From a virus (Duplodnaviria; Heunggongvirae; Uroviricota; Caudoviricetes): DNA of 34,109 nucleotides. Positions 333-23,080 of this stretch are shown one piece after another. The first letter of the stretch is position 1. Every line of letters begins with the position of its first letter. The DNA is taken from positions 1 to 34,109 of IMG/VR virus record IMGVR_UViG_2913167280_000005; one strand, given 5' to 3'. A model generated the notes under the pieces. That model worked only from the letters and a program-made list of their open reading frames with translations. It was not told where the DNA came from and ran no database searches. A program made the translations under genes and the position numbers.

Positions 333-1136
333 ATGTGTCGGGTTCTGAAGGTCGCCCGTGCGGGATTTTACGTCTGGCTTCATCGCCCTGTTTCTGCCGG
401 AGAAAAGGATAATCAGCGGTTGCTGGAGCTCATCCGCGATGCTTATGCACTGAGCGGCGGAGTCTACGGTTATCGCAGGGTTCACGGCGATCTTCGTGAA
501 ATCGGTGAAGTATGCAGCAGAAACCGAGTTGCCAGAATCATGAAGCGGAACAGGATACAGGCCGTACATGGCTATAAGGTCCCGCGTGGCGTCAGGGGAA
601 GGCCGTCACTGATAGCTCCTAATCGCGTACAGCGGGAATTTACGGTGGTAAAACCCAACCAGGTGTGGGTAACTGATATTACCTACATCCGCACCTGGCA
701 GGGTTGGCTGTATCTGGCGGTGGTTATCGATCTTTTTGCCCGTAATGTGGTGGGCTGGTCGATGAAACCAACGCTGTCGCGCGAGCTGGCACTGGATGCG
801 CTGCTGATGGCAGTCTGGCGGCGTAAGCCTGCAGAAAACGTCATAGTGCACAGCGATCAGGGCAGTCAGTATGGCAGTGATGACTGGCAGCGGTTCTGCA
901 GGGCCAACAATCTGGCGCCGAGCATGAGCCGTCGTGGCAACTGCTGGGATAATGCGGTGGCAGAATCGTTCTTCAGTTCACTGAAAAAAGAGCGCATCAG
1001 AAAGCGGATATATAAAACCCGGGACATGGCCCGGGCGGATATCTTCGATTACATTGAAGTGTTCTACAACCGGACCCGACGCCACAGTCATCTGGGTGGC
1101 GTCAGCCCGGAGGCCTTCGAAAAGGCCTCACCGTGA
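333..1136 (+). CDS. IS3-family transposase OrfB (DDE catalytic domain), likely made as an OrfAB fusion by -1 frameshift near 247-252
   Basis: 267-aa ORF with rve-type integrase-core motifs (VWVTDITYI, LYLAVVIDLFARNVVGW, GNCWDNAVAESFF); the frame is open upstream to the slippery site. Confidence 0.85.
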   Translation: MCRVLKVARAGFYVWLHRPVSAGEKDNQRLLELIRDAYALSGGVYGYRRVHGDLREIGEVCSRNRVARIMKRNRIQAVHGYKVPRGVRGRPSLIAPNRVQREFTVVKPNQVWVTDITYIRTWQGWLYLAVVIDLFARNVVGWSMKPTLSRELALDALLMAVWRRKPAENVIVHSDQGSQYGSDDWQRFCRANNLAPSMSRRGNCWDNAVAESFFSSLKKERIRKRIYKTRDMARADIFDYIEVFYNRTRRHSHLGGVSPEAFEKASP

Positions 1137-7142: not shown

Positions 7143-8122
7143 TATTCGACCCTCACCACGATAGCCTGCCCTGTTTTCGGATCGGTTGCCCAGCGCCCAC
7201 TGCCGCTAACCATCCTGTACTGTCCGTTACCGATATTCACCGGCGTGAAGTTGCTGGCGGCGTTTTCGTTCAGCCCGGCATCTTTAAGCGCCTGCTGCGC
7301 TGATACGGTATAGCGGTCCTTGAAGGTGCTTTTGTCCATGCCAAACGGCATTACCACATCGCCACCATTGAATCCCTTATAAATACCACCAGTTGCCATC
7401 TGCGCAGCTTTGGAAACCACATCTGAATTCGCCGCGTCTGTGCGTGCCAGGCCGCTGTCACCTGACTGATATGCAATACCAGCATACGCAGCCTTAAACA
7501 GGCTATAGCTCATCTGGCGAGCCTGAGCGTTATAGGAAAACGAGTTGCCGACCTCATCATCGAAAGCGCGCTTGAGCTTGTCATCGCTCGGCAGTTGGAC
7601 GGGCTGAATGCCGGAGTCCTTCATCGCCTTCGTCGGATTCAGCAACTGATCCCCGGCCAGAATAGTTTTTGAAACGTCGTACTTGTTCATAGTCGGCTTG
7701 TAGCCAATGAACTGATCGTACGAAATAACCGGGTTCTTGTTGTCGTACTGGTTGTCAGGCGTACCAAGCAGCAGCGCGGAATAGGCCGTCGCCGCATTGT
7801 TCGGAGCAATAGCCCCGGCTACCTGCCGCATTGCCGCCGGTGGCAGTGATTGCCCCATGCTCTGCAACAGGTTAATGGTCTGATTAACGTTCTGCGTGCC
7901 GCGAACCTGCTGCGCCAGTGTAGCCGCCTCTTCGCTTGAAAGGATTGGCGCAGTGATACCGAGTTGCTTAAGCCCTTCCTGCGCAGAGAAACGGCTGGAA
8001 ACTTCTTTCGTGATGTCCTGCGGGTTGTTGGTGCTGAGCGGGTGATACGCGCCAATATCGACTGCCGCGTTGAACGGGTTATTCTGGCGATCGCTGATAA
8101 CCTTTGTAGCAGCCGTTTTAAC
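7142..8122 (-). pseudogene. open reading frame continuing the 8123-9682 gene past an in-frame TAG; no independent start signal
   Basis: Same reading frame as the 519-codon ORF. The 85 codons between the TAG (8123-8125) and the first start codon (TTG 7867, ATG 7858) contain no stop and no ATG/GTG/TTG, and there is no Shine-Dalgarno before 7858. The translation looks protein-like (VKTAATKVISDRQNNPFNAAVDIGAYHPLSTNNPQDITKEVSS...). Confidence 0.45.
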
Positions 8123-9682
8123 CTAGTCGAATAACTGAGCGCGCGACGCATACCCCTCGCCAGTTTCGCCAGTGTCAGGTCGCAGTTGATTCACATAGGC
8201 AGTGATGCTGCTAGTCGGCATATTGCGGAATGAGCCAATGTACTGACCGGCAACCTGAGTATTCTTGAATTCGGTATAACGGAGATTTCCTTCACGTACA
8301 CCATAAGCCGCCATGAATGCCGCTTCATCAGGTGGGTTGGGGAACTCAACGCCGCGCATGTATGCGGCGGTGGCATCGCGTACCTGACCATCAATAGTGG
8401 TTTTGTACTGCGCTTGCTGCTGCTTACGCATCTGGTCAGCCTGGCGCATAAACGTTGCCTGAGCTTCTGGTGAGGCAGCGTCAAACGCCGCATTCCCGGT
8501 GTAACGCTTCCCGACCGTCGGCAACTCTGACAGGCCGAGCGCAGCGCTAACTCCGCTGCCGATCTGCTCTTTGGTGTACGGCTGATCCCCGTTCTCATGC
8601 TTGATGATTGCCGAGCACAGCGCACTCAGTGTGTCAGGGTTTGATGCGTCAATCTGCTGATCGGGATGAACACCAAGTTGAGCACAGACGGCTTTGACAT
8701 AAGCAGACGTATCGTTGTTGTCACCAGGCGGTGCCCAGCGGTTAATGATGTCGTTTACCGTATCAATGCCCTGACGCTGGTATGAAAGTAGATTGCGACC
8801 CAGCGCACGAATGCCATGCTCTGGCGTTTCGAATTTGGCAAAGCGGCCGTCATCACCATTCTGGCCTACCCACGGATTAGACTTGCTGTATTCGAGATTA
8901 CCGGGGTTGTTATTTCGGATGCCGCGCGCACCTTCCGCGCCGGAAACATCTGGAGTGCTGGCAACGGCCCGGCGTGAACCAACAACCGTGTCACTAAGCT
9001 CCCCATTCTTCTCGATGAATTCCATGGAGTTATTAGCTGACCATTGCGACAGCGCGTTATCGGCCACCTTCTCTTTGAACTCATTTTTTTTGGCGGTGAT
9101 TTGCTCAGCACTCCAGCCATGCGCCGCACAGTAATCATCAATCTGCTGGAATGTCTGCGAGTTAGCATTAACGTACGCGGCATTATTGCCGTACATCGAT
9201 GCGGCAGTTTTCCCGTTATTCAGCAAAGTGGCCTGGAACTGGCCTTCTTCGTAGGCATTGAGTTGCCCGACTTCATGCCGCCCGGCCTGTGCAGTGAACT
9301 GTATGCGCTGATTCTGAGCTTGCTGGAGGAATCCAGCCCGTGCAGACTCCGGCAGCGTTAGTGCCAGTTCCTGCGCTTTCATGTCGAATTGCTGGGTGTA
9401 CTCCTGGCCTTTGCCAAGAGCATTTTTTCCCTGAAGATTAAGCAGACCCGTATCCGGGTTTGTCATCAGATCACTGGCTGTCTGGCTCAGTTGCAGCGAT
9501 GCATCCTGAGACATGGCAACGTCGGCGCGCAGCTTGGCCTGACCGAGAATGTTCACATACTGATCGGCAACATTCGCCAGGCCACCGCCGAACACATCCG
9601 GGGATGCCTGCACATTGAAACCGCCAGTTGATACACCGCGGCTCTCAACCTGACGACCAGTTGTAGTTGGAACTACTGGCAT
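8123..9682 (-). CDS. internal virion protein, N-terminal part (519 aa), terminated by an in-frame TAG
   Basis: ATG at 9682 with strong AAGGAGGA upstream. Contains a conserved-looking block GIRNNNPGNLEYSK...RWAPPGDNN that I cannot assign to a family. Confidence 0.6.
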   Translation of the reverse strand: MPVVPTTTGRQVESRGVSTGGFNVQASPDVFGGGLANVADQYVNILGQAKLRADVAMSQDASLQLSQTASDLMTNPDTGLLNLQGKNALGKGQEYTQQFDMKAQELALTLPESARAGFLQQAQNQRIQFTAQAGRHEVGQLNAYEEGQFQATLLNNGKTAASMYGNNAAYVNANSQTFQQIDDYCAAHGWSAEQITAKKNEFKEKVADNALSQWSANNSMEFIEKNGELSDTVVGSRRAVASTPDVSGAEGARGIRNNNPGNLEYSKSNPWVGQNGDDGRFAKFETPEHGIRALGRNLLSYQRQGIDTVNDIINRWAPPGDNNDTSAYVKAVCAQLGVHPDQQIDASNPDTLSALCSAIIKHENGDQPYTKEQIGSGVSAALGLSELPTVGKRYTGNAAFDAASPEAQATFMRQADQMRKQQQAQYKTTIDGQVRDATAAYMRGVEFPNPPDEAAFMAAYGVREGNLRYTEFKNTQVAGQYIGSFRNMPTSSITAYVNQLRPDTGETGEGYASRAQLFD

Positions 9683-10234: not shown

Positions 10235-10698
10235 TATTTTCTCTCCATGTGGAAACGGTGGAAGCTCATGCCGAGGGCACCATACGGTGCCGGGTCTTCG
10301 AGTTTGAAGCCAAGCCAGTGCAGCCAGGACTTCGCCACGTGGTTGCGCTCGTCAACGTAGTTTTCGAGATGTGGGTAGATTGAGAGCATTGCCTGCAATG
10401 CGTGACGGCTACCGCGCAGGAACGTCTTCTGATATTTCTCAACCAGTGGAGTGCTGACAAGCCACGGCACGCCATTGCCGCCGATCATCGATGCAGGCGA
10501 CACACCAAACATCGTGACAAGCTCACCATTAGCGAAACCTGACCAGGCCATTGTTGAAGTACGCAGGCCAACGCGAATAGCCTGCTCAGTGGTCATCAGT
10601 GAAACGGCATAGAGTTCATCGATATCGGCCTGACGAACATTAGGCAGTATCATCTGCAAGTGCTCTTCCGTTGCCTGGAGTAACTGGACGTCAATCAT
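10234..10698 (-). CDS. hypothetical structural protein (154 aa)
   Basis: ORF translationally coupled on both sides within the structural operon. Confidence 0.5.
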   Translation of the reverse strand: MIDVQLLQATEEHLQMILPNVRQADIDELYAVSLMTTEQAIRVGLRTSTMAWSGFANGELVTMFGVSPASMIGGNGVPWLVSTPLVEKYQKTFLRGSRHALQAMLSIYPHLENYVDERNHVAKSWLHWLGFKLEDPAPYGALGMSFHRFHMERK

Positions 10699-13172
10699 CA
10701 GAATCCTCCCACGGTAATGCGAGGGATAACCGCCAGCACAGACAGCGGTAGCGGGTCAGTTTGCTGCACTTTAATGCGCCCGTTCTTATCCCAGTCGCTG
10801 TCCAGTTTCACTTCTACTTTGCCAGTGGCGTCGTCAACTGGATCGTCGTAAAACTCAAACTCGCGCTGTGGGTACTCGTACCACTTTCCGCCAGGTGTTG
10901 ATGCAAAGATGCCGCGGCTGGCATTCACCACCAGCGTAACGGTAGGGATTATCTGTTTTTTATCGAGCAGCGTTTCCTGCCCGTTAATATTGATGTCCAG
11001 CGTTTCAAACTGAGCATTAATCGGCAGGCCGATATGCACCACGCCGCCGGGAGATTCCAGCGTTACCTTGCCGGCAGTGACAATTTTCTGAGGCTCGACG
11101 CTGGCATCAGACAGAATGTTTACTGTTTGGCCTTCAAGGTGATTAAGCCCGGCAAACGTCATACGCGCCATGCGCCAGTTGGTGGTTGCGGTGTTTCGCA
11201 GTACCGGAGGAATGTTGCGGTTAGCGCGAACGGTGACGACAGTTCCGCTGGTATAAGCAACGATGTCACAACGCAGCTCCATATCAACCGGCTCGCCTGA
11301 AACCGGATCTGTTCCGATGTATGGCATCTGTATTTGAGAACCGACATCACCGGCATTGAAGTAGCTGGCGCTCATAGTCAGCGTGTAATCAGTTTGATAG
11401 ATCCAGTCTCCGCTACCGCCGCTGATAGTTGCCGTTGTTGTTCCAGTGTTGCGGCCATCATAGCTCAGTCCACAGTCTACAAAGAAGGCATCCAGATCGT
11501 TGGTGAACTGACGGCTCGAAAGGCGTTCGATGTAACGGACTGTCTGACCGTTAATGACACGCTTCACGCTGAAATACACGGCATCTTCGTCGCCTTCGCT
11601 GATGCAACAAGTGCTTTCATAGAATCCGGCGCTGGACTGCGGAGCCCAGGCGAAGACCTGCTGATCACGAAGATAGGTCAGCACCAGTAGTTTGCCATCG
11701 TCACGAATGCAGAAAGCGCTGGAGTACGGCACAATACAAAATGACCAATCGACCAGGCTGTGCTTCTGAAACAGATGGTTTGCCAGAATGGTAAGGTCTG
11801 AACCCTGATACCCGTCAACGTCGAACGAATAGGCCAGATCCCGCACCACGCTGCCTTTTTCCTGAATGAACAACGCGATGTTTGCCACGGCAATTGGCGG
11901 CACATTGCTACATCCGTTTGAGCCCTGAGAGCTGAAAGAGAATGCGCTTGGTGTCAGCACCTTATTCTGGTCACCGGACACCACATATTCACCACCGGAT
12001 GTCAGCACCACCAGTGATCCCACATCAATCAGGTGACGGATCTCATTCACCTGCCGCCCGGCGTAGGTGTAGATAATCCGGTCATCGTCCTGCGTCGGGT
12101 TGTTCTTGCCGAAGTCTTTGTAATCGCCTGTACGGCTGGCCCAGATAGTTTGCGGGAACGCGGTAGACGCGGCGAAGTAAAGACGCTGCTGGTAATACAC
12201 CACGGTGCCGGGATAGCCGTTTACGCTATTCCAGGCATATGGTGCCCACTTGTAGCTGGCCTTATCAGTGCCCACCACGTTCTCAGGAACGCGTGATACC
12301 ACGGTTGCGGTCGCGCTTTTGTTATTTCCTGCTACGGCAGTAATGCGGACAATGCCAAATCCAGAGTGCAGGTATTCCCACTGGATTCCAGTATCATCGT
12401 CACCAGTTCCGCCCCAGCCATCCCACGACATCCCCTCAGTGTGAGACGGTCGCAGAGTGCCAGTTTTCCCGGCAGTGTTTGCCCGGTAGTAATTGCTGTC
12501 AGCGCGGCGGATATCATCAATAACTGTTGTCTTGCTGGTCTCCCATACAGGAACGGAGTCAACAGCAGGCTGCTCAAGATAAAAAAGCGTGCCCACTAGT
12601 TCACTGCCGAAAATTGCTGAGTTTGATACGAGGGCAACAGTGCCGGTTGTGCCGCTGGAATAGACGGTGATCGACTCATCAACGTTGATATCTTCGAATG
12701 GGCCGTTGCTAGTCACCACATCGACTATCTGCCAACTATCATGGGCAAATCTGCGAAGCTCTTTCGGCGGGTACGACGGATGCACCAGAGTCAGCACATC
12801 GGCGCTTTGTGTGAATTTGATACGGAACAGATCTGCTTCGGTGTACGGCATCGCCAATTCATAAATGACGTTGCTGCTGTTGAGCACGTATGCGCCGTCT
12901 TTGATAACGCGCATGTAGTTGTGGCCGAACTCCAGCGCATAGGTCTGGATGGTCGAGAACTGGAACGGGATCAGACGGCATTTTCTTGTTGGATATTTTG
13001 CAGCGCCGATGAACTGTGTGCCAGGACGGTTCTCAACGCCGCCATATTGACGAACGATGAAGTTGTCGCATTTACGCAGCGCAACCTGGTATTTAGCCAT
13101 GTCGATACGCCCGTACAGCGACGGGCCAATTTCACCACCAGCAAAGCTCGGTTGTATCCAGCTCACAGCCAT
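10698..13172 (-). CDS. tail tube/nozzle protein (824 aa; T7 gp12-like by size and position)
   Basis: Large ORF immediately downstream of the adaptor-like gene; start overlaps the upstream stop. Confidence 0.55.
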   Translation of the reverse strand: MAVSWIQPSFAGGEIGPSLYGRIDMAKYQVALRKCDNFIVRQYGGVENRPGTQFIGAAKYPTRKCRLIPFQFSTIQTYALEFGHNYMRVIKDGAYVLNSSNVIYELAMPYTEADLFRIKFTQSADVLTLVHPSYPPKELRRFAHDSWQIVDVVTSNGPFEDINVDESITVYSSGTTGTVALVSNSAIFGSELVGTLFYLEQPAVDSVPVWETSKTTVIDDIRRADSNYYRANTAGKTGTLRPSHTEGMSWDGWGGTGDDDTGIQWEYLHSGFGIVRITAVAGNNKSATATVVSRVPENVVGTDKASYKWAPYAWNSVNGYPGTVVYYQQRLYFAASTAFPQTIWASRTGDYKDFGKNNPTQDDDRIIYTYAGRQVNEIRHLIDVGSLVVLTSGGEYVVSGDQNKVLTPSAFSFSSQGSNGCSNVPPIAVANIALFIQEKGSVVRDLAYSFDVDGYQGSDLTILANHLFQKHSLVDWSFCIVPYSSAFCIRDDGKLLVLTYLRDQQVFAWAPQSSAGFYESTCCISEGDEDAVYFSVKRVINGQTVRYIERLSSRQFTNDLDAFFVDCGLSYDGRNTGTTTATISGGSGDWIYQTDYTLTMSASYFNAGDVGSQIQMPYIGTDPVSGEPVDMELRCDIVAYTSGTVVTVRANRNIPPVLRNTATTNWRMARMTFAGLNHLEGQTVNILSDASVEPQKIVTAGKVTLESPGGVVHIGLPINAQFETLDININGQETLLDKKQIIPTVTLVVNASRGIFASTPGGKWYEYPQREFEFYDDPVDDATGKVEVKLDSDWDKNGRIKVQQTDPLPLSVLAVIPRITVGGF

Positions 13173-13777
13173 TATGACATCCTCGCCCTGGTAAACTCGT
13201 CAACTGGCATCTGCGGTTCCTGGCTTTCATTCATGCTGTGTGACCCAGCGCTGAGGATCGTCATCTGATACATCTTTAGCGCGTTGTTGCCGAGATCTGC
13301 GCTTCCGGTCAGCACCATGTTGATTGCTGCCGCCAGACGCCAGGCTAGCGCCTCCTGAAAAATGGCATCAAACATATTCACGTCAGTGATACGTGAAACA
13401 TATTTCAGCCACGCCTGCGGCTGATCGGTATAAATCAGCTTTCCGGTGCCGTCGTCATTTGCCCCGGTAACGAACTCAATACGCATAGCTGCCGGTGGGT
13501 TTCGAATGCCAGGCACAGGGATTTCAATGATGCGCATGCAGTCCGTAGGGTACTGGTATGCATAGGCCCAGTCAGAAGGCGGGTTGTTCGTATCGGCAAG
13601 GGCCACTCGTTTGGTGGCAAAGTTCCATTCAGCGTCTGACAGAACAGCATCACGGCATGATTCGTAATGCAGCGAGCACTGATCGGCTTCTTTGCTGGCT
13701 TCGACCAGGCTGTTGATGCTGCGGTTATTCCCGATATTGCTCAGCGCTCGGTTGCAGATTTCGATAACAGAGGCCAT
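13172..13777 (-). CDS. tail adaptor/gatekeeper-like protein (201 aa; T7 gp11-like by size and position)
   Basis: ATG at 13777; the size and acidic C-terminus resemble gp11-type adaptors (recalled, not aligned). Confidence 0.5.
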   Translation of the reverse strand: MASVIEICNRALSNIGNNRSINSLVEASKEADQCSLHYESCRDAVLSDAEWNFATKRVALADTNNPPSDWAYAYQYPTDCMRIIEIPVPGIRNPPAAMRIEFVTGANDDGTGKLIYTDQPQAWLKYVSRITDVNMFDAIFQEALAWRLAAAINMVLTGSADLGNNALKMYQMTILSAGSHSMNESQEPQMPVDEFTRARMS

Positions 13778-13780
13778 GAC

Positions 13781-14101
13781 TTACCCCTCAGAACCATACA
13801 GAGTGTCAGCTGCTGATTTAGGCGCTTCACCTGATGCTGGTGCAATTGCCATATCAGTGATCTGAAGGCTGGCGCTATGCTGCATACCTTCTTCACTCTC
13901 ACGTGTAGAAGTTGAACGAATGATGGCTTTAGCGGTGATCATAACTTCCGTTCCCGCTGATTGCGGTGTGGCTTTCAGCTTGGTCAGAGTGTCGTTATTC
14001 AGTTCAATGCACAGGCCCCATGGATAATCATCGCGAGTCTGTGTTTTCCCGTCTTCATCCTGATAGCTGTCAGTGCCGGTTTTGAGGTTTACCAGTTCCA
14101 T
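13781..14101 (-). CDS. hypothetical virion protein (about 106 aa)
   Basis: ATG at 14101 with GGAGAG 5 nt upstream; the track ORF extends to an upstream TTG at 14116. Confidence 0.5.
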   Translation of the reverse strand: MELVNLKTGTDSYQDEDGKTQTRDDYPWGLCIELNNDTLTKLKATPQSAGTEVMITAKAIIRSTSTRESEEGMQHSASLQITDMAIAPASGEAPKSAADTLYGSEG

Positions 14102-14117
14102 AACGCTCTCCTGCAAT

Positions 14118-14141
14118 AAAGGGGCCGAAGCCCCTTGTTTG
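14118..14141 (-). terminator. intrinsic terminator (GGGGC-CGAA-GCCCC plus T-rich tract) inside the late operon
   Basis: Hairpin read directly; TTTATT follows on the minus strand, just downstream of the stop at 14153. Confidence 0.5.
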
Positions 14142-14152
14142 ATTAGCGAGGC

Positions 14153-14530
14153 TTAAACGCCCAGTGCTGCGTGCTTCTCGGCGATCTTCTCGCGGAGAGT
14201 TTTGGCGCTGGTGTTGTGATGAGGTTTATCGTTGAAGAGCACTTCGTACTCTTCGCGGAGTTTATCCAAATCATCGTCGCCTTCACCTGCTCCAGTGCCG
14301 CTACCCGGCTCGCCGTCATCGTCGGATTTGTTATCCGATTCATGCGAAACGTATTCCTGTCCGCGCTTTTTCAATGCCGCCGTCTTTGCCTTAACTGCTG
14401 CCTCGTTAAGAGGCTCCAGCGCGCTACCCGGCTCGCCGTCATATTCAACTTCTGAACCTTCAGGCCAGAGGTTGTTATGAATATGGGATAAGCGCAGGAC
14501 GCGGTATTTTGCTTTTTCCATCGCCATCAC
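14153..14530 (-). CDS. acidic hypothetical virion protein (125 aa)
   Basis: ORF in the capsid module; Asp/Glu-rich. Confidence 0.5.
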   Translation of the reverse strand: MMAMEKAKYRVLRLSHIHNNLWPEGSEVEYDGEPGSALEPLNEAAVKAKTAALKKRGQEYVSHESDNKSDDDGEPGSGTGAGEGDDDLDKLREEYEVLFNDKPHHNTSAKTLREKIAEKHAALGV

Positions 14531-14531
14531 C

Positions 14532-14972
14532 TTAGCCAGTTACTTTGGAACGTACTGGGTAGTACGGCGTGTTGTTATCCACATCCAGGTTAATGCCGGA
14601 AGTGAATGCGCCAGCGGTCAACGGGCCAGTGCCAACCGAATAGTTCACGCGCAGGTAACGCTGAACACCAGCCGGAACTTTCGTCGAGAACAGACGCTTG
14701 CCTGCGGTAAGAGTCGCCAACGCCAGTGCGCCGCTGTCGCAAATGGTGGTCCAGGTGGAGTTATCCGGGCTGGTCTGCAACTGCACGTTCAGGGTTGCCG
14801 CGCCAGCTGCGGTTGCAGTGGTGTCAACGGTGGCCCAAAACTCCAGTGGGTAGCCAACGCCGATGTCACGGCGGGTGCCGTCAATCGGGCCGAGGTCAAT
14901 CACATCCGTAGAAGCTGCGGAAGCAGTTACCGCCTGCTTCTCGGAGAACATCAACAGTTTGTCGAGGATCAT
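14532..14972 (-). CDS. hypothetical capsid-associated protein (146 aa; possible decoration protein)
   Basis: ORF directly downstream of the major capsid gene; Thr/Ala/Gly-rich. Confidence 0.5.
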   Translation of the reverse strand: MILDKLLMFSEKQAVTASAASTDVIDLGPIDGTRRDIGVGYPLEFWATVDTTATAAGAATLNVQLQTSPDNSTWTTICDSGALALATLTAGKRLFSTKVPAGVQRYLRVNYSVGTGPLTAGAFTSGINLDVDNNTPYYPVRSKVTG

Positions 14973-15023
14973 TTTCTTTCTCCATTCATGGGCCAGTTAA
15001 GGCCCACTGATTAATAACAGGCG

Positions 15024-16010
15024 TTAAACAACGCGCGCTTCGGTTTCCAGAATCGCATCAGTTTCACGGATAGGGATGCCACGGAATGCAGTCCACCAGT
15101 CCCCCTCAGTCTCTTTGACGCTAAGCGCCAGAGAAGCCTTGTCCAGAGATTGCAGGTCCAATGCCTGGCCTACGGTACGGTTCATGTAGAAAGCCGCGCG
15201 CCCCATTTTCAGGTTAGGCACGCGGTGCAGTGCTTTAACCATCTGGGTAACGATATTTGCCGCACTCGCAGGTACAGACAAATCGCTCACATCGATATTT
15301 GCGATGCGCACAACGTAGCGCCAGTCACGAAGAGTCAGGCCGTTATCCCACTTGTAGTGGGTGCGGTAACCTTCGTATGGGTTGTTGTTGGCGTCACGCA
15401 ACGTCTGTTGGCCTTTATCTACCATCTGGAGACCGGCTTTCTGACCTTTAGGGAAGGTGCCATGTACGGTATTTTCACCCCACACAACCAGCCAGATAGA
15501 GGTGTTATCGGTGCCGGTACCGCCTGCGTCGATAATGTTCTGGCCATTCCCGGCAGATTTGCTGGAATAACGAGAAGACAGACCCATGAACTGCTGAGGG
15601 TTAATGCTCGTATCGCCGTAGAAAAGCGTGGTTTCCATCTGCTGGTTCATCGCTTCCAGGAACGCACGGTCTTCCGACAGACGAAATTCTGAGGTATTAC
15701 CGTTCAGATCAGCCAATGACTTATCTACTTCTGCATAGGCTTCCAACATACCGATGGAGTCGGTAACCTGAACGGTGGTTGATTTGCTCGGCTGAACACC
15801 ATAGTTAAGCAAGCGCCAGGTTGCTGATGGCAGACCTGAACGAACAGTGGTTCGGTGGCCGGTTGGAAGGTTGCCTTCAACAATCAGCATGTCTTCCAGG
15901 ATCGGGTTAGTTTGAGACAGAAGCTCGATGATTTTATCGATCTTCCCATTTGGGTCTACGCGCTTACCCCAGTCTGCCAGCGTCAGCGCAGTTAAGCCTT
16001 TAACAGCCAT
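15024..16010 (-). CDS. major capsid protein (328 aa, HK97-fold type by size and context)
   Basis: ATG at 16010 with GAGGAAA upstream; sits between the scaffold-like gene and the tail genes. Confidence 0.8.
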   Translation of the reverse strand: MAVKGLTALTLADWGKRVDPNGKIDKIIELLSQTNPILEDMLIVEGNLPTGHRTTVRSGLPSATWRLLNYGVQPSKSTTVQVTDSIGMLEAYAEVDKSLADLNGNTSEFRLSEDRAFLEAMNQQMETTLFYGDTSINPQQFMGLSSRYSSKSAGNGQNIIDAGGTGTDNTSIWLVVWGENTVHGTFPKGQKAGLQMVDKGQQTLRDANNNPYEGYRTHYKWDNGLTLRDWRYVVRIANIDVSDLSVPASAANIVTQMVKALHRVPNLKMGRAAFYMNRTVGQALDLQSLDKASLALSVKETEGDWWTAFRGIPIRETDAILETEARVV

Positions 16011-16024
16011 GGTTGTTTCCTCTC

Positions 16025-16738
16025 TTATTTGCCATACAGCACTTCGGCAGCGCTACGCTGGCCGGTTTCTTTTCCGGTGACCATGTTGTCTTCAGTCATG
16101 GTCGCGCCGATTTTTACAAAAGCTCGAACGAGATCAGGGTGATTTCCCAGACCGGTAGAGCTGAGATAGTCCTTCAGACCTGGAGGTCCGAACGTGTCCA
16201 GAGCACGCTGGGCAAGGCTCAGATTTGAGGTCAGTTTGTCGCCGCCGATCTCTTTGTCGGCTTTGACTTCTGCGGCCCAGTCTTCGGTCTGCTTCTGCCA
16301 GGCTTCGGTCTGGCGCTGCTGCACACCGGCCAGAATTTTCGGGTATGCGTCTACCAGTTTCTGCGCCTGCTCGTTTGACAGGTTCAACTCACGGGCCACA
16401 GGCTCGAAGTCGGCCAGCGCCGCGGTATCAAGCTCCACGCCCTCTGCGGTCTTGAAATCGTATTTATCTGGCGCGCCTTCTGGCTTATCGTCCTTCTTGC
16501 CGTCCTTTCCTTCTTCGCCAGCATTTTTGTCGCCGTCTTTGTTTTCACCTTCTTGCTTCTGCTCGCCTGGCTGACCTCCACCTTCTGCTCCGGGCTGCGG
16601 CTCACCACCAGCGGGAACTGCTTCTCCGGCTGGTGCTGAACTTGCAGCTGCAGGTTCAGATGATGCCGGGGCAGCACCACCATCAGCGGGTTGCTCATTG
16701 CAGAGGCGACAATGCAGCAGACGTTCAAATAAATTCAT
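16025..16738 (-). CDS. scaffolding protein (237 aa, acidic, Ala/Gly/Glu-rich)
   Basis: Low-complexity acidic protein immediately upstream of the capsid gene. Confidence 0.6.
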   Translation of the reverse strand: MNLFERLLHCRLCNEQPADGGAAPASSEPAAASSAPAGEAVPAGGEPQPGAEGGGQPGEQKQEGENKDGDKNAGEEGKDGKKDDKPEGAPDKYDFKTAEGVELDTAALADFEPVARELNLSNEQAQKLVDAYPKILAGVQQRQTEAWQKQTEDWAAEVKADKEIGGDKLTSNLSLAQRALDTFGPPGLKDYLSSTGLGNHPDLVRAFVKIGATMTEDNMVTGKETGQRSAAEVLYGK

Positions 16739-16749
16739 TGGTTATCTCC

Positions 16750-17073
16750 TTAAACCGGGATCGTTTTGGCTTTCAACTGGGCCAGAACAGCGGCAAGAGT
16801 GGTACGTAGTGCGGTTGCATCTGTCAGCAGCGCGTTGTATTTGGCTACCAGGTCATTGTGGTCAGTAACAAGACCAGCAACGTCTGATGCTGAAGAGTTG
16901 GTGTCTGCGGTAGCCGTCATTGCAGCCGGTGCCGCGATAGTCGCTCCAAGCTTTACACCGCCGTAATCGGTTGTGGTCGGAGCGCCAATTACTGCTGGAG
17001 AAGGATCCGGAACCTCAACTACCTGATTTGAGCCATCGAGACGCACGACGCGCTGAGTTTGTACCTGTGTCAT
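16750..17073 (-). CDS. hypothetical head protein (107 aa)
   Basis: ORF between the portal and scaffold genes. Confidence 0.5.
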   Translation of the reverse strand: MTQVQTQRVVRLDGSNQVVEVPDPSPAVIGAPTTTDYGGVKLGATIAAPAAMTATADTNSSASDVAGLVTDHNDLVAKYNALLTDATALRTTLAAVLAQLKAKTIPV

Positions 17074-17381
17074 AAATTGTCCTCACCGGCCTCTGCGGCC
17101 ATCTTCAGATACTGATCCGGGCAGTGCGCCATTACGCGCTGAAATAGCATCAGCGCCAGATTGCGCTGCCCTTCGTTGAATGCAGTCACATACGGGTCAT
17201 TGGTGAAGCAAGGGCCAAAAACACTTCCCTTTTCCAGCAGAGACCACAACACCCGACGGCCCTGTTCAGATCCCATGACGCGTTGAATGTCTTCAATGTC
17301 GCGCTTACGAAGAATCTCATTGGCCACTTCACGGGCTTTTCTTTCTTCGGCGTTCTCTTCATCAAGCAGATCGCTCACCAT
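17070..17381 (-). CDS. hypothetical head protein (about 103 aa)
   Basis: ATG at 17381 overlaps the portal stop (ATGA). Confidence 0.5.
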   Translation of the reverse strand: MVSDLLDEENAEERKAREVANEILRKRDIEDIQRVMGSEQGRRVLWSLLEKGSVFGPCFTNDPYVTAFNEGQRNLALMLFQRVMAHCPDQYLKMAAEAGEDNL

Positions 17382-19066
17382 CACTGACGAGCCCCCGCGC
17401 CAGTGGCGTTAGCCGCTGCGTTTGAAATGGCAGTCAACGCGCTAGGGTCCGACGTCTGCGTTTCGCTGAGAGTCTTGGCCCCCTGAGCCGCTGCCATCCC
17501 CATCTGCATCTGTTGCTGCATCTGAGCCTGTTCGGCGCGAGCTTTACGCAACTGCTCAACCTCTTCCTGCGAGGTGATAACGCTCGGCGATACGCCGGAC
17601 ATTTCCGCGAATGCGTCGATCGCTTCGTCGGCATTGAGCTTGTCGAGTGCTTCCGGTTTGACGGTCGCCAGCTGACCAATGAATGCAACGGTCTGAGAAA
17701 GGCTGGAAATTCCGATTGATTTCTGTGCCTGCGCCATCACCGAGATGTACTCGACTTTCAGCGGCATGCCCTGCATGACCTCAGGCGGTGGCGGCAGCAT
17801 GTTCTTGCGTGCCATGATGGAGAATGCGCGGTCGATAAGCGGGTTAAGGCACTCGTCATTGAGGCGCTCGAGCACCGGGCCAAGCATCAGGAGCTTCTCT
17901 TCCTTCATCTCGATCACCGCTTCAACAGGCATTGAGCGGGTATTGATGTTCTGCAACATCATGAAGAGGTCGACGAAGTAGGCGTTTTTGATGACCTGGC
18001 GTGTGTCCTGAATGTCAGCCAGCAGGTCGGCGGTGTTCGGGTTTACGAGGTAAGCAGGTTTGAATCCGTCCTGATTACCCACCTGGTCGATGTAGGTGAT
18101 GTCGCCAGGCAGCAGGGAGACGCGCTGATTCTTCAGTGACGACGGACCGATCATTGGTGGATTGGTGGCCTTGTCGATCAGCTGGCTCTTGCGTTTCTGC
18201 TCAAGCTGAAGCGCCTTCACCGGGCCCAGTGCAATCATGCCTGGGCAAGATGAGCCGTAAACGTCCTCGCCGTTAACTTCCCAGCGCGGAGCCATGATCG
18301 GGAATTCGTCGTAGCCGGACTCGCGCAGCAGCTTTTCGTTGTCGCCGCCAACCTCAAAGTAAACCGACTTGTACGGCTTGTTCTTGCTGTCCAGCTTGCC
18401 AGTGTCGCGGTCGGTGTTCGGGTATACGGAATGAATCACCTCGATCCACTTCTCGTATGTTCCGTTTTCCCACATGCTTTTAACGGAAGTGCTGACCTTA
18501 TCAAGGCCGAATTCCATCACCATCTGGCGAACGGTCATCGAGAACTTACGGAAGCAGGTATCGACGCTGCCGCGAGCAGAGTTCGACAGGTAGTAGCTGC
18601 CAATCGGGAACATCTGCGTACGGATGATATCGGTGTCGTCTTCCAGTACAGCCATTGCACCAGAGCTGTACGTTCCGAGTGAGGAATACAGCAGCGGCAA
18701 AGACTGATACAGGTTCGAGCGGTTGAACATTTCGTTCATGTATCGCTGAACGGTTTCGCACCACTGCTTAACCGGGCCGTAATCCATCATGTCGGGATCA
18801 GGTGTTGCCAGCTTGAACCACGGACGGGCCGGACTGGTGATGCCTGACATCATGCCACTGGAAAGCACGCGCTCTGCCAGGGTCGCGGTAGGGTCAATGA
18901 TTCTGGTATTGCGGCGATCACGGTTTACGTCAGTGACCAGGAAACGGGAACCACGCGGAATGATGTAATCACTCAGCTCTCGCCAGTGAGATTCGAACGA
19001 AGTACGCTCATTCTCCATTTGCGCAAGCTGCTTAATCAGTTGCTCTTTTACGGTTTCCGTCGCCAT
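17381..19066 (-). CDS. portal protein (561 aa)
   Basis: Size and position between the terminase genes and the scaffold/capsid genes; ATG at 19066. Confidence 0.8.
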   Translation of the reverse strand: MATETVKEQLIKQLAQMENERTSFESHWRELSDYIIPRGSRFLVTDVNRDRRNTRIIDPTATLAERVLSSGMMSGITSPARPWFKLATPDPDMMDYGPVKQWCETVQRYMNEMFNRSNLYQSLPLLYSSLGTYSSGAMAVLEDDTDIIRTQMFPIGSYYLSNSARGSVDTCFRKFSMTVRQMVMEFGLDKVSTSVKSMWENGTYEKWIEVIHSVYPNTDRDTGKLDSKNKPYKSVYFEVGGDNEKLLRESGYDEFPIMAPRWEVNGEDVYGSSCPGMIALGPVKALQLEQKRKSQLIDKATNPPMIGPSSLKNQRVSLLPGDITYIDQVGNQDGFKPAYLVNPNTADLLADIQDTRQVIKNAYFVDLFMMLQNINTRSMPVEAVIEMKEEKLLMLGPVLERLNDECLNPLIDRAFSIMARKNMLPPPPEVMQGMPLKVEYISVMAQAQKSIGISSLSQTVAFIGQLATVKPEALDKLNADEAIDAFAEMSGVSPSVITSQEEVEQLRKARAEQAQMQQQMQMGMAAAQGAKTLSETQTSDPSALTAISNAAANATGAGARQ

Positions 19067-22213: not shown

Positions 22214-22800
22214 TTCTCACCAGCCTCTCTGATGCGGCGGCGCGCGGATGCCATGCGGTCTGCAATGGTGACGGTGCCGGAAACCTCGAGGCGTTCTTTG
22301 AACGCCATAACATCGACGTGCTTGCCGATGAGCTCCAGATTCTTCACCTTGTCGGGCCATTTTATCTTTTTGAGGATGCCGACCAGTTCTTTCTCATCGC
22401 CGCGCCCCTCAAACATGTCTGCCAACTCGAATCCGGTAAGATACTGGCGCCAGACCCTCGGCCACTCCGAAACCGGTTTAATACTCATGTCATCGTTCAG
22501 AATGTCGATCACATCCATCTGGTCGATTTCCACCAGGCGAAGCAGAACATAATCAGCGCTGACGCGGGTGCGCTTGTTGCGCTCCTCCATGAGTTCAGCA
22601 ATCCGTTTCTGGATTCGCTCATCGCGCATCATGACGCTGGCTTTGACCGCCGCCGTATTAGGAGAAAATCCTGCGTCTATCGCCGCCTGAGACTGATTTT
22701 CAGGGCTCTTGATGTATGACTGGCAGTAAGCCTCCTGCATCGCTGTAAGCGGCTTAAATTGCGTTGATTTGCGTTTGTGTGGTTTTGGTTCCGCTGGCAT
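22210..22800 (-). CDS. terminase small subunit (about 196 aa)
   Basis: Directly upstream of and coupled to the large subunit; ATG at 22800 with GGTGG upstream (track start is a TTG at 22812). Confidence 0.75.
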   Translation of the reverse strand: MPAEPKPHKRKSTQFKPLTAMQEAYCQSYIKSPENQSQAAIDAGFSPNTAAVKASVMMRDERIQKRIAELMEERNKRTRVSADYVLLRLVEIDQMDVIDILNDDMSIKPVSEWPRVWRQYLTGFELADMFEGRGDEKELVGILKKIKWPDKVKNLELIGKHVDVMAFKERLEVSGTVTIADRMASARRRIREAGEK

Positions 22801-22802
22801 TG

Positions 22803-22837
22803 TTACCACCAAAGTAATTAATTACCGTTGTGGTAAT
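22803..22837. promoter_or_regulatory. two adjacent operator-like dyads (GTTACCACCAAAGTAAT and ATTACCGTTGTGGTAAT; sites B0 and B) just upstream of the terminase small-subunit start
   Basis: Read directly; centres 19 bp apart; B0 is a 4/5 half-site match. Confidence 0.4.
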
Positions 22838-22845
22838 ACTATCAT

Positions 22846-22873
22846 GCAAAACAAAGCCGCCATAGTCGGCGGC
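22846..22873 (-). terminator. intrinsic terminator (GCCGCC-6 nt-GGCGGC plus TTTGTTTTG) immediately upstream of the late operon
   Basis: Hairpin and U tract on the minus strand, between the small early genes and the terminase start. Confidence 0.6.
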
Positions 22874-22896
22874 CGTTGCTGTTATTTATATTCATC

Positions 22897-22908
22897 GTGA
22901 CATGTCAC
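22897..22908. repeat. 12-bp palindrome GTGACATGTCAC, copy 3 of 3
   Basis: Directly abuts the stop codon (22910-22912) of the 56-aa gene, upstream of the late-operon terminator. Confidence 0.45.
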
Positions 22909-22909
22909 A

Positions 22910-23080
22910 TCACCCGTACCACTTCTCCATGCTATCGAAAATATCAGCTGCTTCTTCGCATCCAGTTTCTCGCAGCCACTGGATGATTAGCTCATCTGCG
23001 TCGACGTGAGTAAACCCGGCGTGCCTCTCTGTCTCCTCCGAAAGATGACGTAGCTTGTTTGTGAATTCCTCTTTGGTCAC
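22910..23080 (-). CDS. small acidic hypothetical protein (56 aa), not in the ORF track
   Basis: GTG start at 23080 with strong GGAGGTG 5 nt upstream; overlaps the stop of the 112-aa gene; translated by hand as MTKEEFTNKLRHLSEETERHAGFTHVDADELIIQWLRETGCEEAADIFDSMEKWYG. Confidence 0.45.
   Translation of the reverse strand: MTKEEFTNKLRHLSEETERHAGFTHVDADELIIQWLRETGCEEAADIFDSMEKWYG

What the first reader, a model, noticed from the sequence alone, without database searches (positions are those of the whole stretch)
14118..14141. Internal terminator between capsid-proximal and tail genes
A GGGGC-CGAA-GCCCC hairpin with flanking T-rich tracts lies within the late operon, just before the 106-aa gene and the adaptor/nozzle genes. 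It is likely a partial terminator setting the head-to-tail protein ratio, a common phage arrangement.
Basis: partly seen in the sequence, partly recalled or inferred. Interest (0 to 1): 0.2.

Follow-up and report, generated by a model that had tools for sequence, protein, structure and literature searches.

The report
Leaky terminator hairpin after capsid genes
A short, very stable RNA hairpin followed by a U-rich stretch sits between the capsid-shell genes and the tail genes of an epsilon15-like prophage; it looks like an ordinary leaky transcription terminator, and its counterpart is already annotated as one in phage epsilon15.

Summary
The hairpin is real. The late genes lie on the minus strand, so the RNA reads AAGGGGC-UUCG-GCCCCUU (window 14136..14119, 7 bp, about -12 kcal/mol), followed by UAUUGC, the AGGAG ribosome-binding site and the AUG of the 106-aa gene.

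It lies in one of only two gaps longer than 15 nt in a roughly 16.6-kb structural operon. The window is an epsilon15-like (Uetakevirus) prophage.

- **Conservation:** the hairpin is present in 165 of 166 related loci. Across 24 sequence variants the 7 bp are always kept, through compensatory changes at three pairs. Loops vary freely, and the 8 nt after the stem hold 4-7 U.
- **Distant relatives:** BPP-1, a Caulobacter phage and an environmental podovirus carry a GC hairpin plus U tract directly upstream of the adaptor gene.
- **Prior annotation:** the epsilon15 RefSeq record marks the orthologous stem-loop as a rho-independent terminator.

The U tract here is weak, and late antitermination cannot be excluded.

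The 106-aa gene downstream is the homolog of epsilon15 gp10, the 'capsid staple'. That assignment is probably wrong, and the gene is missing in several relatives. Verdict: an ordinary, already known kind of element, of low interest.

The parts
14119..14136 (-). Stem-loop H2 (the finding). RNA is AAGGGGC-UUCG-GCCCCUU: 7 bp (5 G:C, 2 A:U) with a cUUCGg tetraloop.
   Evidence: -12.1 kcal/mol. Conserved with compensatory changes.
14113..14120 (-). U-rich tail UUUAUUGC after the last G:C pair. The first two U also pair with the AA at the stem base. RNA 3' ends are predicted at about 14116-14113.
   Evidence: T-weight 3.19. In 71 related sequence contexts, 4-7 of these 8 nt are U. The 3'-end position is inferred.
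14137..14148 (-). A/U-rich single-stranded spacer (CGCUAAUCAAAC) between the post-stop GCCU and H2. Its sequence varies among relatives.
14149..14162 (-). Small hairpin GGGC-GUUUAA-GCCU that holds the stop codon (14155-14153) of the 125-aa gene in its loop. It includes the conserved post-stop GCCUC.
   Evidence: found in 10 of 11 lineage representatives with different sequences, -3.5 to -9.8 kcal/mol. Individually weak: 7.8% of 22-nt windows fold as well.
14099..14112 (-). Shine-Dalgarno AGGAG (14112-14108) and the AUG (14101-14099) of the 106-aa gene. The SD starts 8 nt after the G:C core of H2.
13781..14101 (-). 106-aa gene, Pfam Gp10-like, homolog of epsilon15 gp10.
   Evidence: 3j40_N, E = 5.6e-21; PF21628. 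Missing in several relatives.
14153..14530 (-). 125-aa gene (epsilon15 gp9-like, function unknown) whose stop codon precedes H2.
   Evidence: (phrog_590)
14532..14972 (-). 146-aa Bbp16-family capsid cement/decoration protein gene.
   Evidence: 3j4u_H, E = 5.8e-28; 8cjz_B, E = 7e-24; PF21190.
15024..16010 (-). Major capsid protein gene (328 aa).
   Evidence: phrog_212, E = 5.8e-105
14988..15007 (-). Stem-loop H1 in the only other long gap, between the capsid and cement genes. RNA is GUGGGCC-UUAACU-GGCCCAU, followed by GAAUGGAG with no U tract.
   Evidence: Strong covariation across relatives.
13172..13777 (-). Adaptor / tail tubular protein A-like gene (201 aa).
   Evidence: (phrog_394)
10698..13172 (-). 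Nozzle / tail tubular protein B-like gene (824 aa).
   Evidence: phrog_376

Best explanation
H2 is an intrinsic (Rho-independent) terminator-type signal of low to moderate efficiency. It ends the capsid-shell part of the structural operon: portal, protease, major capsid protein, Bbp16-type cement protein and a small gp9-like protein.

Proposed mechanism, inferred rather than shown:
1. Eighteen nucleotides after the gp9-like stop codon, the nascent RNA folds into a 7-bp G:C-rich hairpin with a UUCG tetraloop.
2. The hairpin is followed directly by UUUAUUG. The hairpin in the RNA exit channel, together with the weak rU:dA hybrid, releases a fraction of host RNA polymerases at about 14116-14113.
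3. The remaining polymerases read through into the gp10-like gene, the adaptor, the nozzle and the ejection-protein genes. These have no promoter of their own.
4. Terminated transcripts end in a very stable 3' hairpin. This should also protect the capsid mRNA from 3' exonucleases.

Both effects raise capsid-shell mRNA relative to tail mRNA. That fits the copy numbers: hundreds of shell subunits against 6-12 copies of the tail parts.

Shown here: the structure, its position, its conservation, its covariation and the persistence of the U tract. Inferred: termination itself, its efficiency, and the effect on protein ratios.
For: - Sense-strand hairpin plus U-rich tail in a 51-nt gap, one of only two gaps longer than 15 nt in the operon.
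- Only 3 strict terminator-like sites on the 34-kb sense strand, against 0.92 +/- 1.07 in shuffles. One of the other two is the counterpart of the epsilon15-annotated terminator upstream of terS.
- 165 of 166 related loci carry the hairpin.
- Across 24 loop-anchored variants (23 of them in the alignment A3 that was scored) the 7 bp are always kept. Pairs 2, 6 and 7 change on both sides (G:C to C:G, A:U to G:C, A:U to C:G). There are 18 double-change cells, and 0 of 500 shuffles reach the observed covariation score.
- Loops vary freely (UUCG, UUAG, UCAG, AUUC, AUAC, UUUC, GCCU, GGAU, GGAA, GAAA). This argues for a structure rather than a sequence-specific site.
- The 8 nt after the last G:C pair hold 4-7 U in all 71 contexts. 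Distant relatives have canonical tracts such as UUUUUUAUUUU and UUUUUUUC.
- The other conserved hairpin of the operon, H1, lacks a U tract in nearly all lineages. The U tract at H2 is therefore not a by-product of 'hairpin plus ribosome site'.
- A GC hairpin plus U tract sits directly upstream of the adaptor gene in BPP-1 (CGGGGGC-UUCGU-GCCCCCG CUUUUUCUU), Caulobacter phage Jess A and the environmental podovirus ctQRb9. In Burkholderia phage E332 it sits after the cement gene.
- Epsilon15 RefSeq NC_004775 annotates the orthologous stem-loop 7664..7686 as a rho-independent terminator.
- No conserved promoter lies downstream, and in gp10-less relatives the hairpin is 22-26 nt from the adaptor ATG.
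- Leaky terminators that balance expression are documented in phages: more than 60% of LUZ7 terminators have efficiency below 50%, and T7 is cited for the same strategy (PMC9163698).
Against: - No RNA 3'-end or coverage data exist for any phage of this group.
- The U tract here is interrupted (5 of 8 U, only 3 consecutive). It is poorer in a large subgroup (UUCUUGCA, 4 of 8).
- The stem is short.
- The tool's own consensus scan did not list the site on the minus strand, because the A:U pairs at the stem base use up two of the U.
- H1 shows that this phage family maintains intercistronic hairpins that are not canonical terminators.
- A regulator gene (phrog_536) followed by a strong terminator lies just upstream of terS. 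This recalls lambda Q-tR', and Q-type antitermination would make H2 ineffective. No similarity to known Q proteins was found.
Confidence: 0.6

Rival explanations
1. H2 is a post-transcriptional element that terminates little or nothing. It acts as an intercistronic stabiliser or processing barrier. In one version it blocks 3' exonucleases after cleavage downstream, which stabilises the capsid mRNA. In another it forms a protective 5' hairpin for the downstream segment after RNase E cuts the A/U-rich spacer upstream of it.
For: - The cUUCGg tetraloop hairpin is very stable.
- The U tract is weak here and in many relatives.
- The sister hairpin H1 is strongly conserved by covariation, has no U tract, and shares the layout: stop codon, A/U-rich spacer, GC hairpin, Shine-Dalgarno.
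- This would be the only possible role if late transcription is termination-resistant.
Against: - The U-rich tail is kept in every lineage and is canonical in distant ones (UUUUUUAUUUU), unlike at H1.
- No processing data exist.
- Stabilisation of terminated RNA is part of the best explanation rather than exclusive of it.
Confidence: 0.2
2. H2 is a translation element. It sits 8 nt upstream of the AGGAG site and insulates or presents the ribosome-binding site of the next gene. Alternatively, together with the conserved post-stop GCCUC, it sequesters the Shine-Dalgarno so that translation of the next gene is coupled to termination of the gp9-like gene.
For: - The 51-nt gap folds at -20.5 kcal/mol with AGGAG paired to CUC-G-CU just after the stop codon; this fold has an ensemble frequency of 0.68.
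- GCCUC is conserved in the close group.
- Spacing between the hairpin and the SD is constant. The same hairpin-SD unit drives the adaptor gene where gp10 is absent.
Against: - The outer helix is not maintained in relatives. The bases next to CUC and after GGAG vary without compensation. U to C in L158-L160 breaks the U:A pair.
- With more sequence context the SD pairing probability is only about 0.5 on average.
- GCCUC is absent from the epsilon15-type, L163-L166 and BPP-1 lineages, which still have the hairpin.
Confidence: 0.08
3. H2 is a translation-sensitive attenuator of the trp type. It would have four segments: GGGC at the 3' end of the gp9-like gene, GCCUC after the stop codon, GGGGC, and GCCCC plus U. 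Pairing of GCCUC with GGGGC would prevent the terminator from forming, unless a ribosome at the stop codon covers GCCUC.
For: - GCCUC can pair with the terminator's 5' arm (-5.8 kcal/mol) or with GGGC across the stop codon (-5.7).
- L158 has GCCCC and L167 has CCCCC at this position, both complementary to their own 5' arms.
Against: - No such complement exists in the epsilon15-type, L163-L166 or BPP-1 lineages.
- The candidate antiterminator has a 13-nt loop and is far weaker than the terminator hairpin.
- No two-sided covariation was seen.
Confidence: 0.05
4. H2 acts on the other strand or at the DNA level. It could be a terminator for antisense (+ strand) transcription, or a palindrome that marks a recombination or module boundary.
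For: - The + strand also reads hairpin plus UUGUUUGA (T-weight 3.11).
- Epsilon15 annotates terminators on both strands at this site.
- The presence/absence junction of gp10 abuts the element, and one relative has an inversion breakpoint in the loop.
Against: - No + strand gene ends nearby.
- The antisense tail is less conserved and less U-rich than the sense tail in distant relatives.
- The asymmetric U tract and the free loop sequence point to RNA in the sense direction.
- The single inversion may be an assembly artefact.
Confidence: 0.04

Closest known systems
Predicted rho-independent terminator of Salmonella phage epsilon15 (RefSeq NC_004775, stem_loop 7664..7686 on the + strand and 7647..7681 on the - strand, between gp9 and gp10)
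   Same: It occupies the same syntenic gap, between the gp9 stop codon and the gp10 start. It has the same GGGGC(C)/(G)GCCCC stem core, a U-rich tail, and then the Shine-Dalgarno of gp10.
   Different: The loop is AUUC rather than UUCG. The second pair is flipped (C:G). The tail is CUUUUCUA, with a longer A/U extension (-20 kcal/mol with flanks). The epsilon15 annotation is itself a prediction, not an experiment.
Phage T7 T-phi, the leaky terminator downstream of major capsid gene 10 (own knowledge; T7's use of inefficient terminators is cited in PMC9163698)
   Same: It is a hairpin plus U-tract terminator inside the late region, after the capsid gene. Tail genes downstream depend on read-through, which gives more capsid than tail mRNA.
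   Different: T-phi acts on T7 RNA polymerase and lies directly after the capsid gene. Here host RNA polymerase is presumed, and two more genes (cement and gp9-like) lie between the capsid gene and the hairpin. There is no sequence relationship. Efficiency is measured for T-phi and unknown here.
Unannotated hairpin between bbp15 and bbp14 of Bordetella phage BPP-1, with similar elements in Caulobacter phage Jess A and podovirus ctQRb9
   Same: It is a GC hairpin (CGGGGGC-UUCGU-GCCCCCG) plus CUUUUUCUU at the boundary between the capsid/cement block and the adaptor gene.
   Different: In these phages it lies directly upstream of the adaptor gene. The gp10 homolog (Bbp20) lies after the portal gene instead. 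The flanks are not alignable.
Intercistronic mRNA-stabilising hairpins of bacterial operons, such as REP elements in malE-malF and the puf and pap operons (own knowledge)
   Same: It is a stable stem-loop in an intercistronic gap that could set different mRNA levels for upstream and downstream genes.
   Different: Those elements lack a U tract and act only through decay. H2 has a conserved U tract. The neighbouring H1 fits this class better.

Membership tests
Intrinsic (Rho-independent) terminator | G:C-rich stem-loop in the nascent RNA, typically 5-14 bp with a short loop | tested here: met
   7 bp (5 G:C), UUCG loop, -12.1 kcal/mol
Intrinsic (Rho-independent) terminator | U-rich tract of about 7-9 nt immediately 3' of the stem | tested here: met
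   UUUAUUGC: 5 of 8 U, 3 consecutive, T-weight 3.19. This is weak for the class. Relatives have 4-7 of 8 U. The tool's consensus scan misses it on the minus strand because the A:U pairs at the stem base are counted as stem.
Intrinsic (Rho-independent) terminator | Sense orientation, downstream of a stop codon, in non-coding sequence | tested here: met
   The stem starts 18 nt after the UAA of the 125-aa gene, in a 51-nt gap on the gene strand.
Intrinsic (Rho-independent) terminator | Structure, not sequence, maintained in evolution | tested here: met
   Three of 7 pairs show two-sided changes. 92.9% of cells are paired. 0 of 500 shuffles reach the covariation score. Loops vary. The alignment was anchored on the loop by hand.
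Intrinsic (Rho-independent) terminator | Generates RNA 3' ends and lowers downstream transcription without Rho | not testable with these tools
   No transcript data were found for Uetakevirus or Rauchvirus phages.
Leaky late-operon terminator separating capsid from tail genes (T7 T-phi type) | Lies after the high-copy capsid genes and before low-copy tail genes | tested here: met
   Upstream: the major capsid protein and the Bbp16 cement protein. Downstream: gp10-like, adaptor and nozzle genes. The caveat is that gp10 is named a capsid staple in PDB and RefSeq, an assignment disputed in PMC9207676.
Leaky late-operon terminator separating capsid from tail genes (T7 T-phi type) | Downstream essential genes have no promoter of their own, so read-through is required | tested here: met
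   No promoter-like site on the minus strand between 14100 and 10698. The -10-like GCTAAT in the gap is not conserved. In gp10-less relatives the hairpin is 22-26 nt from the adaptor ATG. Only consensus promoters were scanned.
Leaky late-operon terminator separating capsid from tail genes (T7 T-phi type) | Measured partial termination efficiency | not testable with these tools
   Requires Term-seq or reporter assays.
trp-type transcription attenuator | Conserved alternative (antiterminator) pairing that competes with the terminator stem | tested here: not met
   GCCUC:GGGGC is possible in the close group and in L167. It is absent from the epsilon15-type, L163-L166 and BPP-1 lineages.
Rfam RNA families | Match to a curated covariance model | tested here: not met
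   No hit at gathering threshold in the window. Only chance-level hits with E up to 10 in 13700-15200.

The most novel reading that the evidence does not exclude
H2 is not a simple terminator. It would be one half of a family-wide system of two intercistronic RNA modules, one after the capsid gene and one after the gp9-like gene. Each module is built as stop-codon hairpin, A/U-rich spacer, GC hairpin, Shine-Dalgarno. Together they would set capsid, cement and tail protein ratios through ribosome-sensitive folding. In that reading the conserved GCCUC after the stop codon switches between the stop-codon hairpin, the terminator's 5' arm and the Shine-Dalgarno. The evidence does not exclude this, because the parallel layout of the two gaps and the recurrent stop-codon hairpins are real. 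The specific alternative pairings are not conserved across lineages.
Probability: 0.08. Interest if true: 0.45.

Novelty: already known. Interest (0 to 1): 0.15.

Why it matters
If the element works as proposed, it is one more example of a phage using a leaky terminator, together with the stable 3' hairpin it leaves, to make far more capsid-shell mRNA than tail mRNA. This strategy is established for T7 and is seen widely in recent long-read phage transcriptomes. The orthologous stem-loop is already annotated in epsilon15, so nothing new in kind is gained.

The practical value is modest:
- It gives a well-defined, conserved site to check in any RNA-seq of induced epsilon15/phiV10-like prophages. 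About 10% of complete E. coli genomes carry relatives.
- It offers a compact natural weak terminator for synthetic-biology libraries.

The side observations bear on how the capsid genes of this phage group should be annotated. The 'capsid staple' gp10 gene is dispensable in natural relatives. A second, covarying hairpin without a U tract follows the capsid gene.

Tried and rejected
- **Rfam:** a scan of the whole window and a permissive scan of 13700-15200 found nothing relevant.
- **Promoter in the gap:** this would make H2 a 5' hairpin of a tail transcript. The -10-like GCTAAT is not conserved (GCGAAT, GGGAAC, AGGTGT, TTGAGT and others), and the -35 position is poor. Rejected.
- **Anti-Shine-Dalgarno helix:** predicted for the 51-nt gap. 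It is not maintained in relatives and is context-dependent. Rejected as a family feature.
- **Antiterminator pairing GCCUC:GGGGC:** lineage-specific only.
- **RNase III site:** the stems are 7-9 bp, too short (own knowledge of RNase III substrates). Not pursued.
- **Search for a Q-like antiterminator:** Pfam, PHROGs and PDB searches of the 112-aa regulator and its neighbours gave only 'transcriptional regulator' (phrog_536) and no Q match. The question stays open.
- **Paralogy of the 106-aa protein** with the 104-aa and 107-aa proteins after the portal gene: none.
- **Literature searches** for transcript maps of epsilon15, phiV10, BPP-1 or Uetakevirus phages: none found.
- **MAFFT alignment of the whole gap** across lineages (A2): it misaligns the stems, so a loop-anchored alignment (A3) was used for pair counts.
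- **Structure prediction of the 106-aa protein:** not run, because it would not change the verdict on the hairpin.

Full report
**1. What is in the sequence**

The + strand at 14118-14141 reads AAAGGGGCCGAAGCCCCTTGTTTG. All long ORFs in this part of the window are on the minus strand, so the transcript carries the reverse complement.

From the stop codon to the next start codon, the minus-strand RNA reads: UAA (14155-14153), GCCUCGCUAAUCAAAC, AAGGGGC-UUCG-GCCCCUU (14136-14119), UAUUGC, AGGAG (14112-14108), AGCGUU, AUG (14101-14099).

The stem has 7 pairs: 5 G:C and 2 A:U. The loop is a cUUCGg tetraloop. The hairpin alone is worth -12.1 kcal/mol, and the G:C core alone -9.6.

**2. Is it more than chance?**

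- The tool's loose terminator pattern is frequent: 27 sites against 18.9 +/- 4.4 expected in 19 kb. The motif alone proves little.
- A stricter rule requires a perfect stem of at least 5 bp ending in a G:C pair, at least 4 G:C pairs, and a d'Aubenton-Carafa-type T-weight of at least 3. The weighting was recalled from memory. Under this rule the whole 34-kb sense strand has three sites, against 0.92 +/- 1.07 in 100 dinucleotide shuffles.
- The three sites are 22873..22856 (upstream of terS), 14134..14121 (this one) and 1035..1018.
- The structural operon is tightly packed. From the portal gene (19066) to 2449, only two gaps exceed 15 nt. Both are 51 nt and both contain a GC-rich hairpin.
- The 51-nt gap folds at -20.5 kcal/mol, z = -2.99. 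Only 1.5% of 51-nt windows of the sense strand fold as well.

**3. Context**

The window is an epsilon15-like (Uetakevirus) prophage. Its closest relatives are Salmonella phages PAT1 and 65FD and Enterobacter phage Tyrion, at about 80% DNA identity. The phiV10 group is at about 76%. The best E. coli prophages reach only about 79%, so the host is probably another enterobacterium.

Gene order on the minus strand:

| Gene | Window coordinates | Evidence |
|---|---|---|
| Portal (561 aa) | 19066..17381 | |
| Bbp19-like (104 aa) | 17384..17070 | |
| 107-aa gene | 17073..16750 | |
| Protease | 16738..16025 | |
| Major capsid protein | 16010..15024 | |
| Hairpin H1 | 15007..14988 | |
| 146-aa Bbp16-family cement protein | 14972..14532 | 3j4u_H E = 5.8e-28; PF21190 |
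| 125-aa gp9-like gene | 14530..14153 | |
| Hairpin H2 (the finding) | 14136..14119 | |
| 106-aa Gp10-like gene | 14101..13781 | 3j40_N E = 5.6e-21; PF21628 |
| Adaptor | 13777..13172 | |
| Nozzle | 13172..10698 | |
| Internal proteins | further downstream | |

**4. Comparative evidence**

*Close relatives.* Eighty IMG/VR loci were fetched with the 106-aa protein and 80 with an adaptor alignment. With the reference phages, 165 of 166 loci carry a hairpin at this place. In the close group the hairpin and its 3' flank are more conserved than third codon positions of the flanking genes.

*Stem, loop and tail.* When the sequences are anchored on the loop there are 24 distinct variants.
- All 24 keep the 7 pairs.
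- Pair 2 is G:C or C:G.
- Pair 6 is A:U, G:U or G:C.
- Pair 7 is A:U, G:U or C:G, with a single exception.
- Ten different 4-nt loops occur.
- On the 23-row alignment A3, 92.9% of cells pair. Three pairs and 18 cells show changes on both sides. No shuffle out of 500 reaches the observed covariation score, and slid registers score far lower. The caveat is that I anchored the alignment by hand.
- The 8 nt after the last G:C pair contain 4-7 U in all 71 distinct contexts. More distant relatives have textbook tails, such as GCCCCUUUUUUAUUUUCUAC and GGCCCCUUUUUUUCAGGAG.

*Epsilon15.* Epsilon15 has CGGGGCC-AUUC-GGCCCCG CUUUUCUAUG in the same gp9/gp10 gap. Its RefSeq record annotates this as a 'rho-independent terminator' on both strands.

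*Outside the genus.*
- BPP-1 has CGGGGGC-UUCGU-GCCCCCG CUUUUUCUU between bbp15 and the adaptor gene bbp14.
- Caulobacter phage Jess A and the environmental podovirus ctQRb9 have a GC hairpin plus U tract directly before the adaptor gene.
- Burkholderia phage E332 has one after the cement gene.

A hairpin plus U tract at the end of the capsid-shell block therefore recurs in podoviruses of alpha-, beta- and gamma-proteobacteria. In these distant phages the sequences are unrelated.

**5. An internal control**

The other long gap, between the capsid and cement genes, holds H1: GUGGGCC-UUAACU-GGCCCAU. Its stem is entirely different in different relatives. Examples are UGGGUC/GACCCA, AGCGGCCCG/CGGGCUGCU, GGCGGGCC/GGCCCGCC, AGCGGGGC/GCCCCGCU and GUCGGCC/GGCCGAC.

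H1 is followed by (A/U)AAUGGAG, with no U tract in nearly all lineages. BPP-1 and BcepC6B also have a GC hairpin without a U tract after the capsid gene.

Selection in this family can therefore keep a hairpin without a U tract. The persistent U tract at H2 is thus a feature in its own right, and it points to termination.

**6. Mechanism**

The best reading is a leaky intrinsic terminator that also leaves a protective 3' hairpin on the capsid-shell mRNA.

Read-through is required. No promoter-like site follows on the minus strand. The -10-like GCTAAT in the gap is not conserved. In relatives without the 106-aa gene, the hairpin lies 22-26 nt from the adaptor ATG.

Low efficiency is expected from the short stem and the interrupted tail. 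Weak terminators that tune expression are common in phages (PMC9163698).

What is shown is structure, position, conservation and covariation. Termination, its efficiency and its effect on protein ratios are inferred. I put 0.6 on this reading.

**7. What weakens it**

- No transcript data exist for these phages.
- The U tract is weak here and weaker in a large subgroup (UUCUUG).
- H1 shows that non-terminator hairpins are used in the same operon. A purely post-transcriptional role (stabiliser or processing barrier) is the main rival, at 0.2.
- A regulator gene (phrog_536) followed by a strong terminator and a palindrome lies just upstream of terS. If late transcription were Q-like and termination-resistant, H2 could not terminate. 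No similarity to known Q proteins was found. Epsilon15 annotates operator sites upstream of the portal operon, which suggests a separate promoter there.

**8. Alternative foldings**

The conserved GCCUC just after the stop codon has three possible partners:
- GGGC at the end of the gp9-like gene, which places the stop codon in a loop (-5.7 kcal/mol);
- the 5' arm of H2 (-5.8);
- the Shine-Dalgarno, as in the 51-nt minimum-energy fold at -20.5.

The last two would give translational coupling or a trp-like attenuator. Neither pairing is kept in the epsilon15-type, L163-L166 or BPP-1 lineages. The flanking bases also vary without compensation. I keep these as low-probability readings.

A small hairpin enclosing the stop codon does recur in 10 of 11 lineage representatives, with different sequences. 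Each instance is individually weak.

**9. The downstream gene**

The 106-aa protein is the homolog of epsilon15 gp10, deposited as the capsid 'staple' in PDB 3J40. If that were right, a terminator in front of it would not separate head from tail.

A 2022 re-analysis concluded that the staple density belongs to a 130-aa protein and that the 111-aa gp10 was mis-assigned (PMC9207676). In epsilon15 the 130-aa protein is gp8, the Bbp16 homolog.

This work agrees with that:
- The 146-aa protein here matches the BPP-1 cement protein and a second solved decoration protein.
- The gp10-like gene is missing in at least three lineages: L105/L122/L130, L100/L107 and L170.
- In BPP-1 and BcepC6B its homolog lies after the portal gene.

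The position of H2 is therefore consistent with the end of the shell genes.

**10. Comparison, novelty and score**

The element is the ortholog of a stem-loop already annotated, by prediction, as a terminator in epsilon15. It works like T7 T-phi and other leaky late terminators. It meets all sequence-level criteria of an intrinsic terminator. The functional criteria cannot be tested here. It matches no Rfam family.

Novelty: already known. Interest: 0.15. The most novel reading not excluded is a ribosome-sensitive two-module RNA system. I give it a probability of 0.08 and an interest of 0.45 if true.

Noticed in passing
window 14988-15007 (minus strand), in the 51-nt gap 14973-15023: A second intercistronic hairpin, H1, lies between the major capsid gene and the Bbp16-type cement gene. 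Its RNA is GUGGGCC-UUAACU-GGCCCAU, followed by GAAUGGAG with no U tract. About 30 relatives keep it with completely different stems, so there are many compensatory changes. It is absent from the epsilon15 type. BPP-1 and BcepC6B have an analogous GC hairpin after their capsid gene. It is not a canonical terminator. It may be an mRNA stabiliser or a translation element.
   Followed up: partly
window 13781-14101 (106-aa gene); loci L100, L105, L107, L122, L130, L170; L086 2920-3249: The gp10-like 'capsid staple' gene is optional. At least three lineages lack it and have H2 22-26 nt from the adaptor ATG. In BPP-1 and BcepC6B the homolog lies after the portal gene. The 146-aa protein (14532-14972) matches solved cement/decoration proteins. 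Together these points support the published doubt (PMC9207676) that gp10 is the epsilon15 staple. RefSeq still names such genes 'gp10: capsid staple protein'.
   Followed up: partly
window 14149-14162 and 15021-15034 (minus strand): The stop codons of the gp9-like gene and of the capsid gene each sit in a small hairpin: GGGC-GUUUAA-GCCU and GCGUU-GUUU-AACGC. At the gp9-like stop codon, such a hairpin recurs in 10 of 11 lineage representatives with different sequences, including epsilon15 and BPP-1. GCCUC after the stop codon is invariant in the close group. Each hairpin is weak on its own. The function is unknown.
   Followed up: partly
locus L029 (IMGVR_UViG_2531839651_000003), positions 511-2473: In this one relative the capsid-cement-gp9 segment (equivalent to window 14128-16078) is inverted relative to the gp10-like gene. 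One breakpoint lies exactly in the loop of H2. This is either a real inversion at the palindrome or an assembly artefact.
   Followed up: partly
window 7145-9682 (minus strand): The homolog of epsilon15 gp15 (842 aa, transglycosylase-like internal protein) aligns in one frame over its whole length at 78% identity. It is interrupted by an in-frame UAG at 8125-8123. This could be a nonsense mutation (a defective prophage), a sequencing error or read-through.
   Followed up: partly
window 22800-22920 (minus strand): A strong terminator-like hairpin, GGCCGCCGACUAUGGCGGCU followed by UUGUUUUG, lies at 22874..22855. It is preceded by the palindrome TGTGACATGTCAC. It sits between a 112-aa regulator gene (phrog_536) and terS. 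Epsilon15 annotates a terminator and a repressor site at the corresponding genome ends. Whether late transcription reads through it by antitermination is unknown.
   Followed up: no
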